Source of the DNA: a virus
Lineage: Duplodnaviria; Caudoviricetes
DNA: 37,424 nt
Reading direction: 5' to 3' (one strand)
Virus record (IMG/VR): IMGVR_UViG_3300017988_000011
Span: 1 to 37,424 of that record
Under the pieces are notes generated by a model. The model did no database searches and was not told where the DNA came from. It saw only the letters and a program-made list of their open reading frames with translations. Made by a program: the position numbers and the translations under genes. Shown in pieces: positions 6,709 through 16,409 of this stretch; the first letter of the stretch is position 1; each line of letters begins with the position of its first letter.

Positions 6709-6920
6709 GCCATCTTCAGCCTATCTATGAAGTCGAGATTATGGCAACCTGCATAGTATCGAGAATCGTTCGGGTGATGGCGCCAGATGCGCTACAGGCA
6801 GAGGTTTTAGGGATTGACGAGGCGAAGGACTTCACGCAAGGCTGGAAAGTGATTGGAGTTTACGGAGAGCCGATAGCGGTTGAGACCATGAAAGAGAGGG
6901 AACATTGGATGCGGGCGTAA
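6705..6920 (+). CDS. hypothetical protein
   Basis: ATGA overlap with the upstream gene. Confidence 0.6.
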   Translation: MSHLQPIYEVEIMATCIVSRIVRVMAPDALQAEVLGIDEAKDFTQGWKVIGVYGEPIAVETMKEREHWMRA

Positions 6921-7050
6921 AATCGGGCCGTATGATTGCTGTTCGGTGGTGTGCGGGGATTGCGTTTCCTTACTTGCTTTACTGCCGTCCGAATCCATCG
7001 ATATGATTTGGACCGACCCTCCCTACGCCCATGGAAATCATAACGGCGAT
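6919..7050 (+). pseudogene. N-terminal remnant of a beta-class N6-A/N4-C DNA methyltransferase
   Basis: KIGPYDCCSVVCGDC...SIDMIWTDPPY; similarity ends near 7050 and no FxGxG motif follows. Confidence 0.75.
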
Positions 7051-7072
7051 GCCCCTTGGCCGCTGTGGGGCG

Positions 7073-7351
7073 TCAAAATCGAAAATAGGTATGCAGATAC
7101 CAGAAAGTCAGAAAACCCGCCACAGCCAGACCTAAGAAGAAACCAGACAGGCCACAAAAAAGCCAGCCGAGCAGTTTGTTTGAGCTGTCCTCAATCCTCT
7201 GCACCCGGCGTCCGAACTGATATGCGGCCAGGTGCTCAGCGTCGGCATGAAGTTGATTCTCGCGCTCCATTGCTTCTGCCTGAAGGCTCAATTCCTCACA
7301 GTAGTCGGAAAAACGTTTATTTTTCATCATTTTCGGTGTCAAGTTCATCAA
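7073..7351 (-). CDS. small membrane protein
   Basis: C-terminal hydrophobic helix LLGWLFCGLSGFFLGLAVAGFLTFW; true start may be MKNKRF. Confidence 0.55.
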   Translation of the reverse strand: MMNLTPKMMKNKRFSDYCEELSLQAEAMERENQLHADAEHLAAYQFGRRVQRIEDSSNKLLGWLFCGLSGFFLGLAVAGFLTFWYLHTYFRF

Positions 7352-7366
7352 GGGTTAATAGTTCGC

Positions 7367-7468
7367 TCATTTTGCCTCTTTTAATGGCGTGAAAATAGCG
7401 GCCCGTTCTTTGTCTTTTTCTGCCGCCCTTTCCGTTTCCAATCTTTCAATCAATTCCTCTTGAGACAC
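7367..7468 (-). CDS. 33-aa charged peptide (MSQEELIERLETERAAEKDKERAAIFTPLKEAK)
   Basis: GGAGG SD before GTG; corresponds to the tail of track ORF 7367..7765. Confidence 0.45.
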   Translation of the reverse strand: MSQEELIERLETERAAEKDKERAAIFTPLKEAK

Positions 7469-7529
7469 ACTTCCTCCATTAAAGCCATCTTCCGCTTTTC
7501 CCCTTCTTTGCTCTGTAGCAGCCAAACAG

Positions 7530-8270
7530 TAGTCGGTTAGGATTGCCTTGGGGAGAGCCTGGGGCTTAGGGTCGAATGCGGTTTTGAAGCGTTGCTGCTC
7601 TGACCTGGGCGGAGCCGTACAAGAGTAGTGTATCTCAGAAGCGATTCCCGGCAAACCATAGCGCATTGTCCTGCCACCGGATGCAAAGGGTATCGTCCCA
7701 TCGACAGTCTGGCTGCGGCCAGTCGTTGAATTGTCGGATTGATTGAGAAATGGCATGATTCCCACTCACTTGGGGATACAGGCAGAGTGAGTGAGCACCC
7801 TGCCTGCACCGGAAACTGTCCGCGCCACCGTTTGCAAGACGATGACTTCCCCCAAGATACACCTTCGCATCCCTTTTGACAACAGGAAATTTGAAGGCGT
7901 ACCAAGCTCATTATTTTCTCCCCGCCCTAAGATTATCTCTGACGCAAACCGATTCTGAGACAATATCGCCGCCCAGCATGATTCGGGCAATGGTTTTGTG
8001 GTGCCGATTGACTCTAGACGCCGCGTAGTACCACACGAGCGACTCTATCCCTGACTGAACTGCAAACCTTGCCGCACTAGGGTGTCTTGGCAACATCGGG
8101 TTTTGCTCGTAAGCTCCCCGGTGTTGCGCTTGGACGCTGGTTACGAGATCTACCGCGCTGCCCTGCCGCCCGCTTGCCAGATTTGCTGGGGAGCGGCAGG
8201 ACGCCGGGATTAGCGGCGGTGCATGGCGCTCACCTCGTTCGGTAGAATTTATAAATCGCCACGGCTTCCC
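7530..8270 (-). ncRNA. candidate large structured non-coding RNA (ends approximate)
   Basis: Nested helices 7605-7612/7969-7976, 7633-7640/7953-7960, 7679-7694/7856-7872, 7703-7710/7813-7820; mismatches read as G-U only on the - strand; no convincing ORF. Confidence 0.55.
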
Positions 8271-8386
8271 GACCAAGATAAAGCAAATCGCAATCGGATG
8301 GCTTGAACTCGATGCCAAAAACAAGGGAATTATATAGATGACTTCCTCGCAAAGTAACACGATGCCTCACGCTTTTTCGCCTCACT

Positions 8387-8536
8387 TTACGCGGTCGCTG
8401 GCGTCAGGTTCGCGAGCTTGCGGGCTTCCCGCTTTTCCCGACGTATCCTCCGTCGCTCTGCCTTTGTCTTTGGCTTCGGGCGGTATCGAAGAACCGCCCC
8501 TGCCATCCTGTCAAGCTCTTCCGGTGTCTCTTTCAT
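8387..8536 (-). CDS. 49-aa basic ORF coupled to the transposase (MKETPEELDRMAGAVLRYRPKPK...)
   Basis: ATGA overlap with the transposase stop; translated manually. Confidence 0.55.
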   Translation of the reverse strand: MKETPEELDRMAGAVLRYRPKPKTKAERRRIRREKREARKLANLTPATA

Positions 8537-9450
8537 GCCGTAAGCTCCTTATAGGTGAGTCTCTTGCCTGCGACCGCCTGCACAAAGCTGGTGAGTCGCT
8601 TCCAAGTGTGGCGCTCGACGTTGCCTTCATTCAGGCGGAAGGAAAATTCATCGACGTACCGGCCAAGGTGCTTCTCTGTGACGTGATGATACACGCCGTG
8701 CAATCCGCGCTTCAGGACCGCCCACACGCTCTCGATACCGTTTGTGTGAGCCATCCCCTTGACGTACTCGCCAGCGGAGTGATTCACGCTCTCCTGGCGG
8801 TAGAACAGCCCGTTCATGTCGTTGTAGGCCGGGTGCTCATCGTTCATCAGCGTCGAGCCAATCTCCACCCGAGCGTGGATGGCGCTCTGAATCTCAGCCA
8901 TGCTGGTATTCTCAATCGCCATCGCAAGGGTTTTCCCGCCACGCTCACGCATCCCCAAGACCGGGACTTTTCCGACCGCTCCACGCCCCATCTTGAGCTT
9001 GTCCTTTTCGTGCTTGTTCGACTCTTTCCCACCGATGAACGTTTCGTCAATCTCCACGATGCCGCTCAGTTTGATGTTCTCATCGTTGCAGGCTTCACGG
9101 AGACGGTGCAGGACGAACCATGCAGACTTCTGCGTGATGCCAATCTCTTTGGCGAGCTGCATCGAAGAGATACCCTTACGGGCTGTCACCATCAAATACA
9201 TAGCGTAAATCCACTTGTGAAGCGGAACGTGGGAGCGCTCGAAAATGGTGCGGGTCCGAACGGTGAATGTCAGCTTGCAGGCGTTACATCGGTAGTATGC
9301 GGACTTGCGTACCGTGATGCGCTCCCCGCTCTGGCAGTCGGGGCATTTAACCCCGTTGGGCCAGAGCAGCCCTTCCAGATAGAGCCGGGCTGCTTCCTCG
9401 TCGGGGAATCTCTCGAACAGCTTGAATGTGCTAATGGTCGAACGGCTCAT
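8533..9450 (-). CDS. IS1595-family DDE transposase
   Basis: Zn ribbon CPDC...CNAC, HTH GISSMQLAKEIG, GIVEIDETFIGG, TLMNDE, HTNGIESVW, RYVDEFSFR. Confidence 0.95.
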   Translation of the reverse strand: MSRSTISTFKLFERFPDEEAARLYLEGLLWPNGVKCPDCQSGERITVRKSAYYRCNACKLTFTVRTRTIFERSHVPLHKWIYAMYLMVTARKGISSMQLAKEIGITQKSAWFVLHRLREACNDENIKLSGIVEIDETFIGGKESNKHEKDKLKMGRGAVGKVPVLGMRERGGKTLAMAIENTSMAEIQSAIHARVEIGSTLMNDEHPAYNDMNGLFYRQESVNHSAGEYVKGMAHTNGIESVWAVLKRGLHGVYHHVTEKHLGRYVDEFSFRLNEGNVERHTWKRLTSFVQAVAGKRLTYKELTA

Positions 9451-9537
9451 TTTTCCTCCAGAGAGTTGCCGGGTTACCTACCGGCCCTCGGTACCACCCG
9501 AGAGGCCCCGCCTGCGCGGAGTGCGCTCGTGCGGAGA

Positions 9538-9897
9538 TCAGCCCTGTTCTACTGGGAGATATTCATGCAAGCGGCCAAGGCCGTCCGTTTGGCCGTTCGG
9601 TCGGAAATCATTGTTCGGGGTCGAATCCTGCTCAGCCTGCGCGATAGCGTCAGCTTCGCTTGTCGCCATGACCTCAATTACGTTAGCGCGGGTTTTGCCG
9701 CCGACCTCGTGATAAACGACATACGGCTTTTCGCTCGCGACTCGTTGAACGAGCGCGAAAAAATCCGCGTCCTCCATCTCGCTCGCGTCCTTTATTGTGT
9801 AGATTCCGAGATCCGCGAGCAATTCAGCCATGCGCTCAGCCTCGGCCATCGTCGCTGCGCTGCCCATCATCTCCATCAATTCGCTGATGTTTTTCAT
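9538..9897 (-). CDS. IS passenger, acidic hypothetical protein
   Basis: AGGAG SD before the ATG at 9897; lies within the IRs. Confidence 0.65.
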   Translation of the reverse strand: MKNISELMEMMGSAATMAEAERMAELLADLGIYTIKDASEMEDADFFALVQRVASEKPYVVYHEVGGKTRANVIEVMATSEADAIAQAEQDSTPNNDFRPNGQTDGLGRLHEYLPVEQG

Positions 9898-9959
9898 TTG
9901 AATCTCCTGCCGCTGGTAGCGGCTCTGGCGTCGGTCGCCACCCTCATTAACAGGACCAT

Positions 9960-9988
9960 TATACATAACTGCCTTGAGGAAGTCAAGT
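9960..9988 (-). promoter_or_regulatory. IS promoter overlapping an internal copy of the IR motif
   Basis: TTGACT-N17-TATAAT; the -35 lies inside TACTTGACTTCCTC, compared with terminal TACTTTACTTCCTC. Confidence 0.7.
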
Positions 9989-10086
9989 ACTTTATTAAGC
10001 CTGTTTTCAGCACTTTACAGAGAGGAAGTAAAGTATATAAGTCCCAAAAAATAAGCAGGACTTGACAAAGGTGTTATACTCCCATC

Positions 10087-10300
10087 GTTACGGTTGATGC
10101 AGTAAATCAACGCGGCTGCCCACAACGCATGAGTCGTCGCGCCCGTAGACAGATACTAGTAGGCTGGAGCTGGAGAGATAGCGAATCAGGAGCAACCGTG
10201 GCCCATAGGACTCCTACCCGTGCGAGGCTCCCAGGGCGATCCGCTACTAGTTAGGTTCGTACGACCTGCTATAAGAATAGACGGGTATAAGGGCCGTGTA
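10087..10300 (+). ncRNA. candidate structured RNA, ~200 nt
   Basis: Extended -10 TGTTATACT upstream; nested pairs GCCCGT/ACGGGT, ACTAGTAG/CTACTAGT, CTGGAGC/GCTCCCAG, AGGAG/CTCCT; no ORF of 60 aa or more. Confidence 0.4.
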
Positions 10301-10545
10301 TCTGCAAGCAAACTTCCATAAATCATACCTACTATAAACGGAATTACGTGTATGAATCCTAATAGAGTATTATATGAGAAGTAATAGTTAAGAGGAGAGA
10401 CACATTGTATCTGCTATAAGGGAATTGCGCTGAGTAAGGTCCGCCAAAGATGTGCGGAAGATTAAGGCTGCTGGGTTACATAATACTCCTTAGCGGACGT
10501 AAATAATCATTGACAACCTATAAGTATTGTGATATGTGTATGTTT

Positions 10546-14141: not shown

Positions 14142-16334
14142 ATGTATTCTCGAAAAATCATCGAGAAGAATCTGGACCGCGAACGGTACAGAATACGCCA
14201 ACTTCTGCGGGACAAAACCTTTGAATTCGTCGAGCATTCCCCCTCCGATTGCCAGCATTCCCGAAAATACTTTCACCAGACAGATAGTTTAGGTAATGAA
14301 CCCAATGTCGAGCGGTACAAGAAAAACCAGCTTAACGCTGATGAAATCAAGTGGATTCTCAACGAGCGGGCATTGTGCCGCTATGACTATCTTTACTTCC
14401 TGACCCACTACTACCATATCGAAACCCACGACAACCGCCTTATTCTTCTTAACCCCAATCTTGCCCAGAGAGCGCAAATTCAATGCAAGGCCGAATTGGA
14501 AGAGAAGGGATTGGGAATCGAAATTCAGAATTTGAAGGCTCGGCAGGTGGGAGTTACGACTGAAAGTGAAGGCGATGTATGCCACCGCGTTACCTTCTAT
14601 TCCAACGTCAATGCTGTGGTAGCTTCATCCAATCCCGCAAAGTCTGGACTTATGGCGGGTAAGATGGAAACCGGATGGGACAACCTCCCGGTATTCCTTC
14701 TCCCCCAAAAAGGCCCGCCGTGGAACCGCCAATGCTTTGAGTTTCCCGAGCAAAATTCCGCCGTGTCGATTCAATCCGGCGCTCAGTTCAATGGCGTGGC
14801 ACGCGGCCAAACCCCAACCTGCGCCCACCTTTCAGAATTAAGTGAATGGAATTCACCCAAGGATGACGTGGACAACGCCATGCTCCACGCCATGCACTCG
14901 AATCCTGAATTGATGGTGATTCTGGAATCTACCGCTTTGATGATGAATGATTGGTGGCACATGACGTGGAAGCAGTCGGTGGCGGGAAAGAACCGTTTCA
15001 CTCCACGCTTTTACGGTTGGTATCTTGCCCCCGACTTCTGGCCTACCGAAACTTATATGAAGAAGTTTCCCATCCCTGGTGACTGGGTTCCTTCCGACCG
15101 TGTTAAAAATCATGCGGAAATGGCTCGCCAATACGTGCTGACCGATGAGGTGGTGCTAAAGATTGTCGGCTCCGGCTGGCAGATGTCCCGAGAACAGATG
15201 TGGTGGTATGACCGGGAGTACAGGGCTGCGCAAGAGCGCCATGCGGTGAATGATTTTCTGCGGGAAATGCCCGCCACACCGGATGAAGCATGGCAGGTTA
15301 CAGGATATTCCATATTTGACGCGGATATTATCCTTCAGCACTGGGAAGGATGCCGTCAACCTGCCGGCGTGTATGGATTCCGAGCCACCAGCGATACAAT
15401 TCCTCTGCGATTACAAGCCGATGAGAACGAGGTTGATCGGAGCAAGGCACCCATTGAAATCAGTTGCGAGTGGATACCGGGCCACAAGGTTGAAGGCCAA
15501 TTACTTCCACTGAAGTGGAAAGGGTATGGCACCGCCGATGAAACCGAAGGTCGGGAAAAATTATTCGTATGGGAATGGCCCCGAAGCGGGCAACAATACG
15601 GAGTTTCAATCGACACATCAGAGGGCATTGGGGCTAATCAGTCTGTGGTTGAAGGAATCCGAAAACAAACTCAGAAAGAATTTTCCGAGCAGATATTTGA
15701 GTATGCATCAACCTGGGCCAACCCGATTGACCTGATTAACATTGCCATGCTCCTTGGAAGCCTCTATTCCCCCCCCCGAAAAGACGGCGAACCGAATCAG
15801 GCAAAACTCATTGCCGAAGTCAAAAGCGAGTCCGACATCACGCAGTTTGAAATGAGGAAACATGGCTGGTACAATTTCCACCACTACATCTCTATCGACC
15901 GCGTTAAATTGGACCCCAATCAGCAACACCGTTTGGGTTGGTACACAACCCCTTGGTCGAGGAAGCGCATTCTGGCGTGGTTTATTTACAATCTCAAGAT
16001 GGGCACTTTTCTTATCAATTCGCCGTGGCTTCTTCAGGAATGCAAAACCCTTCATCGCGATATATACGAGCAGCAATTACGCGCCGAAACGGGAGCGATG
16101 GACGACCGCATCATGGCAAGCAGTTTCGGGTGGTACGCCCTCCACGAATTAGATGAGCGCACCGCTGAAATGCAAATCATGGAAATGCAGCAAGAGGTTA
16201 AGATGGGTGCGTACAAGCCGCAAATCTCCGAGCAACAGCGGCAGGACTTGGAAGATTACACGGGGATGGGATTAGATTTCGGGTCGCAATCAAATATCGT
16301 GATTCCGCAATCCGACCCGGTGTATGATTTCTAG
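14142..16334 (+). CDS. terL: terminase large subunit
   Basis: LKARQVGVTT Walker A, HLSEL Walker B-like, ILESTA coupling motif, nuclease GVSIDTSEG...MDDRIMA. Confidence 0.9.
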   Translation: MYSRKIIEKNLDRERYRIRQLLRDKTFEFVEHSPSDCQHSRKYFHQTDSLGNEPNVERYKKNQLNADEIKWILNERALCRYDYLYFLTHYYHIETHDNRLILLNPNLAQRAQIQCKAELEEKGLGIEIQNLKARQVGVTTESEGDVCHRVTFYSNVNAVVASSNPAKSGLMAGKMETGWDNLPVFLLPQKGPPWNRQCFEFPEQNSAVSIQSGAQFNGVARGQTPTCAHLSELSEWNSPKDDVDNAMLHAMHSNPELMVILESTALMMNDWWHMTWKQSVAGKNRFTPRFYGWYLAPDFWPTETYMKKFPIPGDWVPSDRVKNHAEMARQYVLTDEVVLKIVGSGWQMSREQMWWYDREYRAAQERHAVNDFLREMPATPDEAWQVTGYSIFDADIILQHWEGCRQPAGVYGFRATSDTIPLRLQADENEVDRSKAPIEISCEWIPGHKVEGQLLPLKWKGYGTADETEGREKLFVWEWPRSGQQYGVSIDTSEGIGANQSVVEGIRKQTQKEFSEQIFEYASTWANPIDLINIAMLLGSLYSPPRKDGEPNQAKLIAEVKSESDITQFEMRKHGWYNFHHYISIDRVKLDPNQQHRLGWYTTPWSRKRILAWFIYNLKMGTFLINSPWLLQECKTLHRDIYEQQLRAETGAMDDRIMASSFGWYALHELDERTAEMQIMEMQQEVKMGAYKPQISEQQRQDLEDYTGMGLDFGSQSNIVIPQSDPVYDF

Positions 16335-16409
16335 GGGGTGTAGCTCAGTCGTTAGAGCTTTCGATTCTTAATCGAAGGGCCGCGAGTTCAATCCTCGCCA
16401 CCCCCACCA
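16334..16409 (+). tRNA. tRNA-Lys(CUU), CCA encoded
   Basis: Acceptor GGGGGTG/CACCCCC-A-CCA, D arm GCTC/GAGC, anticodon arm TTCGA-TTCTTAA-TCGAA, T arm GCGAG-TTCAATC-CTCGC; 76 nt. Confidence 0.93.

What the first reader, a model, noticed from the sequence alone, without database searches (positions are those of the whole stretch)
7530..8270. Candidate undescribed large (~740 nt) structured phage ncRNA on the minus strand
Seen: a long block without credible genes in an otherwise tightly packed genome, holding at least five concentric long-range helices. These are 7605-7612/7969-7976 (8 bp), 7633-7640/7953-7960 (8 bp), 7670-7678/7878-7886, 7679-7694/7856-7872 (16 bp with one bulge) and 7703-7710/7813-7820. 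There are also local hairpins (minus strand GTCATCGT/ACGGTGGC, CTCACTCACT/AGTGAGTGGG), crossing pairings (CTTAGGG 7565/CCCTAAG 7925; CTTGGGG/CCCCAAG), and a separate 5' domain (GTCCTGCCGCTC/GGGCGGCAGGGC near 8160-8202; CTCGTAA/TTACGAG). The imperfect positions are G-U pairs on the - strand but A-C on the + strand, which points to selection on an RNA. GGUUUGC occurs three times (7651, 7944, 8062). Known: GOLLD and ROOL are phage-associated ncRNAs of similar size. Inference: this is a large ncRNA transcribed with the small ORFs at 7073-7468. I recognise no RNase P, tmRNA or intron hallmarks.
Basis: partly seen in the sequence, partly recalled or inferred. Interest (0 to 1): 0.82.

Follow-up and report, generated by a model that had tools for sequence, protein, structure and literature searches.

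The report
Phage RNA carrying host CRISPR repeat
A peat-soil phage has a predicted folded RNA gene, shared in shape with two copies in a related phage, whose middle is an exact copy of the CRISPR repeat of Cas9 systems in its likely host group, so it likely works as a decoy against that immunity.

Summary
The named helices are present, but the 740-nt block folds only weakly better than shuffles (z -1.85) and is not one unit. The part 7848 to ~7480 (minus strand, after a promoter-like site) has two homologs in a related phage. All three keep four hairpins and a 6-bp kissing loop with different sequences, plus 3' motifs, one resembling tracrRNA stem-loop 2. The homologs lack the repeat; here it stands in place of 145 nt. 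No Rfam match. The outer long-range helices use DNA upstream of the promoter; the two tested lack an upstream partner in the homologs. Best reading: a new phage structured-RNA family, this copy likely a tracrRNA/Cas9 decoy (0.45); main rival: recombination scar in an RNA with another job (0.35). Expression and function are untested. This scan noted lone II-C repeats in other phages before, not this RNA.

The parts
7854..7882 (-). Promoter-like site TTGTCA-17-TATCTT; predicted start near 7847
   Evidence: 9 of 12 consensus; 2 such sites found in 6900-8700 against 1.1 expected, so weak alone; both homologs have TTGACA-17-hexamer at the same distance from hairpin H1
7824..7846 (-). Hairpin H1 (8 bp)
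   Evidence: 8 of 8 pairs kept in all three copies; pair probability 0.94
7810..7822 (-). Hairpin H2 (4 bp)
   Evidence: 4 of 4 pairs kept in all three copies
7775..7810 (-). Hairpin H3 (14-15 bp); loop 7795-7790 CTCACT
   Evidence: 11 of 11 compared pairs kept in all three copies; probability 0.98
7759..7774 (-). Hairpin H4 (4 bp) followed by AA; loop 7770-7765 AGTGAG pairs with the H3 loop (kissing loop)
   Evidence: 6 of 6 loop pairs in all three copies, 5 of 6 with changes on both sides; descriptor hits only these three sites
7663..7669 (-). ACAATGC, shared by all three copies; left edge of the replaced segment
7627..7662 (-). Solitary exact copy of an Acidobacteriota type II-C CRISPR repeat, in crRNA sense; stands in place of 145 nt of homolog L263
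7562..7616 (-). tracrRNA stem-loop-2-like motif GGCTCCGC...CGACCCTAAGCC with a 34-nt loop insert
   Evidence: best tracr-3' alignment of 3736 windows here (33 against 32); present at exactly the three family sites
7519..7534 (-). Invariant 16-nt motif GACTACTGTTTGGCTG
7481..7498 (-). Weak terminal hairpin ending GGCTTT; likely 3' end
   Evidence: -4.7 kcal/mol here, -10.7 in L266; not called as a terminator
7367..7468 (-). 33-aa ORF behind GGAGG; nucleotide similarity to L263 runs into its start
7073..7327 (-). 84-aa ORF with a hydrophobic C-terminal stretch, no homolog
7883..8270 (-). Upstream non-coding part, not shared with the homologs; holds hairpin 8202-8160 and an anti-repeat-like stretch 7964-7927
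8325..10045 (-). IS1595-family element bounding the block (24-nt terminal inverted repeats, transposase 8533-9450)

Best explanation
The block holds a predicted structured phage RNA of about 370 nt (7848 to about 7480, minus strand) whose middle is an exact copy of a type II-C CRISPR repeat of its likely Acidobacteriota host, and this RNA likely acts as a decoy that pairs with the host tracrRNA and ties up Cas9. Steps: (1) shown: exact repeat, crRNA orientation, no cas genes in the 51 kb seen, family architecture shared with two repeat-free homologs; (2) inferred: transcription from the promoter-like site at 7882-7854; (3) inferred: the repeat replaced 145 nt of the ancestral middle by recombination with a host array; (4) predicted: host tracrRNA out-competes the RNA's own folding and pairs with the repeat, RNase III trims it, and Cas9 is loaded with a guide that has no target; (5) speculative: the family's tracrRNA stem-loop-2-like motif adds Cas9 contact.
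For: Repeat identical in 8 of the 36 loci other than this phage (some share a genome); 7 of 11 large ORFs tested are Cas9; cas9-cas1-cas2 without csn2/cas4 in the 2 loci checked; arrays with this repeat occur in runs that also hold this phage. Sixteen host tracrRNAs fix the orientation. Cofolding with 4 of the 16 tracrRNAs pairs 18-31 of 36 repeat bases, binding -14 to -22 kcal/mol against -4 to -12 for 10 shuffled tracrRNAs; repeat:tracrRNA duplexes are -39.5 to -50.7 against -38.1 for the best cis partner. Shuffling the repeat alone makes the fold more stable in 24 of 25 trials, so the repeat is not locked up. The repeat has no mutation. The best tracr-3' match in each of two phage genomes lies in a family copy (38 against 35 of 4918 windows). 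Solitary repeats and sgRNA mimics inhibit CRISPR immunity in tested cases (PMC10651486; 10.64898/2026.06.01.729453; 10.64898/2026.06.03.729762).
Against: One occurrence only; both homologs lack the repeat, so it is not needed for the family's job, and an unmutated repeat may just be recent. No intact tracrRNA or sgRNA scaffold; the repeat/anti-repeat-like duplex guessed in the homologs fails (122 and 24 of 300 shuffles as good; ensemble probability 0.0). L263's tracr-3' score is background (24), and L263 was found with a pattern built from that motif. No acr-like gene was recognised next door. The bin that holds this phage has no Cas9 over the cut-off, and the tracrRNA pattern is in 1 of 401 phylum genomes sampled, so the real host's Cas9 is not shown. 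No host spacer matches the phage (243 and 290 spacers). The vscaRNA tested in 10.64898/2026.06.01.729453 repressed only after its guide was lengthened.
Confidence: 0.45

Rival explanations
1. The repeat is a recombination scar with no anti-CRISPR role: the phage recombined with a host array whose neighbouring spacers came from this locus (or via the short GCTATG match), losing 145 nt; the RNA family has an unrelated job, most likely an operon-head leader acting on transcription elongation (put-like, recalled) or a stand-alone ornate RNA.
For: Clean edges: homology to L263 stops at ACAATGC and resumes at the first base after the repeat, with the next 31 nt identical. L263's replaced segment begins with the repeat's first six bases read from two bases earlier. 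In G773 the two copies head divergent transcription units behind TTGACA promoters. Two other phages carry lone copies of this repeat with none of these features (L039, L042). Spacer-mediated phage-array recombination is recalled (Varble et al. 2019), not found.
Against: Does not explain why the family's 3' motif matches stem-loop 2 of the tracrRNA of the very system whose repeat was gained. No array with the two flanks as spacers was found. A scar would still be transcribed in crRNA sense and is predicted to bind tracrRNA.
Confidence: 0.35
2. The whole family, with or without the repeat, is a large Cas9 sponge: the 3' domain mimics the tracrRNA tail and the 5' kissing-loop domain stabilises or multimerises it; the repeat is a later add-on.
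For: Stem-loop-2-like motif at all three sites and nowhere else in the two genomes; L266 matches a host tracrRNA at 26 of 31 aligned columns with near-native loop length.
Against: tracrRNA model scores no family copy significantly; no repeat:anti-repeat stem in the homologs; only two base pairs of the outer stem are kept (read from the sequences); G773's host is unknown.
Confidence: 0.12
3. The RNA is a programmed guide (vscaRNA-like) that steers host Cas9 to silence cas9, or the repeat serves as an internal promoter for the small ORFs.
For: II-C repeats encode promoters (PMC13187072, PMC12080349, passages read); this repeat holds TTGCCG-16-TACACT (read from the sequence). vscaRNAs exist (10.64898/2026.06.01.729453).
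Against: The 24-30 nt before the repeat match no cas9/tracr promoter beyond chance in 16 regions from 15 loci (median background fraction 0.79 and 0.45) and end in a motif native to the phage family.
Confidence: 0.05
4. One reading: one 740-nt GOLLD/ROOL-like RNA held by concentric long-range helices.
For: Helices present; 7600-7980 folds at z -3.44; read-through from upstream could make such a transcript.
Against: No homology upstream of 7848; the two outer partners tested are absent upstream of the homologs' promoters; 8030-8250 folds no better than shuffles; one run holds a variant that leaves the sequence at 8154.
Confidence: 0.03

Closest known systems
Solitary repeat units / RNA anti-CRISPRs (Racr; PMC10651486, passages read)
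   Same: One host-type repeat, intergenic, behind a promoter-like site, no cas genes, small ORFs downstream.
   Different: Here the repeat sits inside a 370-nt structured RNA that exists without it in relatives; the type II-C decoy would need tracrRNA. The passages read describe the type I-F case and list candidates for all types but VI.
vsgRNA and vscaRNA (10.64898/2026.06.01.729453, parts 1-4 of 9 read) and rAcrIIA1 (10.64898/2026.06.03.729762, part 1 of 5 read)
   Same: Phage RNA with Cas9 repeat-like and tracrRNA-tail-like parts.
   Different: Those are 90-111 nt complete scaffolds, often with a guide to the cas9 promoter and beside acr genes. This has a full 36-nt repeat, no intact anti-repeat/nexus, no promoter-targeting guide, and a 5' kissing-loop domain.
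GOLLD and ROOL (PMC12286853, passages read)
   Same: Phage RNA of unknown function with kissing loops; GOLLD's 3' region is the more conserved part.
   Different: No Rfam match, smaller (370-490 nt), not beside tRNA genes (the one tRNA is 8.5 kb away).
ecrRNA-silencing hairpins of II-C arrays (PMC12080349, part 1 of 6 and passages read)
   Same: Upstream sequence can pair with the 25-30 nt before a first repeat; 4 of 27 host loci show strong inverted copies.
   Different: The sequence before the repeat here is phage-native, not a captured array end.
HK022 put antitermination RNAs (recalled, no call)
   Same: Two related structured RNAs at the heads of divergent phage transcription units (G773).
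   Different: put is about 70 nt; these are 480-490 nt with long invariant 3' motifs.

Membership tests
SRU/Racr | Single repeat matching a host-type CRISPR array, no other repeat within 100 bp | tested here: met
   36/36; one copy in 51 kb; other look-alikes not above background
SRU/Racr | No cas genes on the element | tested here: met
   genome incomplete (59% for the window)
SRU/Racr | Intergenic, behind a promoter, in crRNA sense | tested here: met
   promoter is a consensus match only; the repeat also lies in frame in an ORF without homologs
SRU/Racr | Neighbouring acr/aca genes | tested here: inconclusive
   small ORFs have no significant match; no Acr library on hand
SRU/Racr | Expressed and inhibits immunity | not testable with these tools
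   RNA-run contigs cannot show it
vsgRNA / rAcrIIA1 | Guide-repeat-anti-repeat-nexus-tail in one compact fold | tested here: not met
vsgRNA / vscaRNA | Guide matching the cas9 promoter beside a PAM | tested here: not met
   true host unknown
GOLLD / ROOL | Match to the Rfam models | tested here: not met
GOLLD / ROOL | Homo-oligomeric cage through loop-loop contacts | not testable with these tools
   one conserved kissing loop; cis or trans unknown
tmRNA, RNase P, group I/II introns, HEARO | Match to Rfam or ARAGORN models | tested here: not met
Captured array end (leader or ecrRNA hairpin) | Flanks derive from the host array ends | tested here: not met
   leader score 24 against background 25.7; both flanks phage-native
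put-like antiterminator | Suppresses downstream terminators in cis | not testable with these tools
   position only

The most novel reading that the evidence does not exclude
A family of 370-490-nt phage RNAs with a kissing-loop head and a tracrRNA-like tail serves as a Cas9 sponge, and one member has swapped its middle for the host's real CRISPR repeat so that it also captures tracrRNA: a large modular RNA anti-CRISPR caught in the act of acquiring a new part.
Probability: 0.18. Interest if true: 0.87.

Novelty: new variant of a known kind. Interest (0 to 1): 0.64.

Why it matters
The RNA family itself appears undescribed (no Rfam match; literature searches found nothing like it) and has covariation support, so it is a ready target for probing and cryo-EM. 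The pair 'with repeat / without repeat' is a natural experiment on how lone CRISPR repeats enter phages and whether they work against type II-C Cas9. If the tracrRNA-like tail binds Cas9, it gives a large-RNA job that is directly testable, which GOLLD and ROOL still lack.

Tried and rejected
Homolog searches that found nothing: INPHARED blastn, plasmids (114), viral scans with two proteins (18, 19) and with patterns (27, 44, 63: only lone repeats L039, L042 and chance hits; 73: three unrelated phages), metagenome scan (48: this record and one ordinary array), 401 order genomes (61), 401 class genomes (123: two 31-33-nt hits, not repeat-flanked), 381 family genomes (134: one 26-nt hit that failed the H4 descriptor), 80 terminase-relative loci (86-88). 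Scrambled-CRISPR-locus reading: a composite score of four host look-alikes was far above background (11.2; 0 of 236 windows; controls), but the features were picked after looking, and the homologs explain it away in part: the promoter term is the RNA's own promoter, the tracr-3' term is a family motif, the 'full anti-repeat' 7863-7822 overlaps the -10 box, is not significant by identity and has no counterpart in the homologs. Guide against cas9 promoter or mRNA: no support (43, 80, 95). The L266 duplex and guide rows used the wrong anchor and are void; redone. Expression: two RNA runs hold contigs at 7463-7613, 8008-8261 and 8064-8976, but also over the IS and other genes at depth 2-10, none over 7711-7911: no evidence either way. 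Chimera at the repeat: unitigs break there in run X2, but depth is 59 and 67 on the two sides against 5.3 for the array contig, a second assembly agrees and L263 has both flanks in the same order. Coding: ORF 7537..7911 has no homolog (74); conservation continues past its stop (120). RNAalifold on two 3' domains gave 0 of 32 pairs with double changes (124), so the 3' fold is unresolved. Group I intron and SRP resemblances were recalled by eye and not supported by Rfam. Supplements not seen: SRU tables of PMC10651486 and Tables S2/S6 of the vsgRNA preprint may list this repeat or phage.

Full report
Setting. The window is a 37,424-nt virus record, 59% complete, with terminase, portal and capsid genes. 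A 51,290-nt contig in a Terracidiphilus bin carries the same phage with one mismatch in 36,643 nt. The block lies between a DNA methyltransferase gene that matches only over its first 30-40 residues and an IS1595 element at 8325-10045.

Observation. The listed helices and motifs are present. The whole block folds weakly (z -1.85 minus, -0.68 plus); the signal is in the 3' half on the minus strand (z -3.44 and -3.55) and absent from 8030-8250. Rfam and ARAGORN find nothing in it.

A CRISPR repeat. Contigs from all four runs laid loop from 7662 back to 7627 with 28-30 unrelated letters between. A genome scan gave 37 loci, 36 titled Acidobacteriota or lower and one Patescibacteria; apart from this phage, 8 of 36 carry the repeat letter for letter. 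Spacers are mostly 30 nt (179 of 243). Seven of 11 large ORFs tested are Cas9 and two loci checked are cas9-cas1-cas2, i.e. type II-C by gene content. Sixteen tracrRNAs in 15 loci lie on the repeat's strand behind a clear promoter, so the phage's minus strand is the crRNA sense. The flank is not the leader. The 51-kb contig has no second repeat and no recognised cas gene.

An interim reading that was revised. Four stretches near the repeat resemble host tracrRNA, its promoter or an anti-repeat, and together they score far above 236 control windows. No intact tracrRNA was found, and none of the direct or inverted repeat look-alikes is significant by identity. The homologs then changed the picture.

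Homologs. A pattern for the tracrRNA-like 3' motif gave 2 viral loci; L263 aligns with 7626-7457 at 81% over 176 nt, starting at the first base after the repeat; L262 did not align. The same phage, G773 (49,253 nt, collinear protein similarity with this phage), has a second, divergent copy, L266. Each copy begins about 35 nt behind a -35 hexamer; here that is the site. Each has hairpins H1-H4: 27 of 27 stem pairs compared are kept in all three, and the H3 and H4 loops pair 6 of 6 in each with three different sequences, 5 of 6 positions changing on both sides. Stem registers were set by hand and identity is low, so double changes in H1-H3 are less telling than the loop-loop match. A descriptor for this head, written from these three copies, hits only them in both genomes and in 2.04 Mb of other stored loci (L265 overlaps L266). 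The heads fold at z -4.45, -1.81 and -2.76. All three share ACAATGC in the middle, CGACCCTAAGCCC, an invariant 16-mer and a final GGCTTT hairpin. Neither homolog has the repeat; it stands in place of 145 nt of L263. Nothing upstream of 7848 is shared. n is three copies in two phages.

How it may work. Shown: repeat identity, orientation, family architecture, replacement edges. Predicted: host tracrRNA invades the RNA, and the repeat is not stabilised by its context. Inferred from known type II biology: RNase III trimming and Cas9 loading of a guide with no target, which would draw down tracrRNA and Cas9 as Racrs and vsgRNAs do (PMC10651486, passages; 10.64898/2026.06.01.729453, parts 1-4 of 9; 10.64898/2026.06.03.729762, part 1 of 5). 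The stem-loop-2-like motif is the unexplained link: it is the top tracr-3' match in both genomes, yet L263 scores at background and no sgRNA-like stem forms in the homologs. The scar reading is nearly as good, because the repeat occurs once and the clean edges fit recombination with an array; no such array was found. The host's own Cas9 is not shown.

Comparison and novelty. By sequence criteria the repeat is a solitary repeat unit; it is not a vsgRNA, GOLLD or ROOL by the tests above. Lone viral repeats are catalogued (PMC10651486; viral mini-arrays in 10.1101/2023.03.03.530964, passages read), and this scan's notes list other II-C cases; a look-up by sequence found none like this. Searches found no report of this RNA family or of a repeat inside such an RNA; subscription journals and the supplements named above were not seen. 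PMC13187072 and PMC8047081 were read as passages only.

Verdict. A real, apparently undescribed structured RNA, smaller than reported, carrying a host Cas9 repeat; likely decoy 0.45, scar 0.35; interest 0.64.

Noticed in passing
window 8325-10045: IS1595-family element with a 142-aa passenger ORF; the 8-nt flanks match at only 6 of 8, so adjacent DNA may have been rearranged.
   Followed up: partly
window 9100-9370: The 5' part of the transposase gene folds far better than shuffles on both strands (z -5.8 and -5.4, 15 shuffles), the strongest of 70 windows.
   Followed up: no
window 6946-7070: DNA methyltransferase gene matches only over its first 30-40 residues and then meets the minus-strand small ORFs.
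   Followed up: partly
window 10064-10500: Strong promoter-like TTGACA-17-TATACT followed by about 400 nt without a gene before an HNH gene; folding not above shuffles; not a member of the RNA family.
   Followed up: partly
window 8154 (run X4): One contig matches 8154-8382 exactly and then continues into an unlike sequence that reads as a ribosome-binding site and start codon; source not found.
   Followed up: partly
window 16334-16409: tRNA-Lys(CTT) abutting the terminase stop.
   Followed up: no
L039 3001-3036, L042 3001-3036: Two other phages carry a lone near-exact copy of the same repeat without the RNA family.
   Followed up: partly
L005, L010, L020, L030: Long inverted copies of the repeat or of the 30 nt before it sit upstream of the first repeat in 4 of 27 host loci.
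   Followed up: partly
L004 4815-5333: Two tracrRNA genes in tandem, each with a cas9 start behind it.
   Followed up: no
L021 8001-8253: Array with repeat spacing of 71-74 nt instead of 66.
   Followed up: no
L263 2346-2490 and L266: The segment missing here shares GCCATCAC and GGCACAAGGCGCA between the two homologs.
   Followed up: partly
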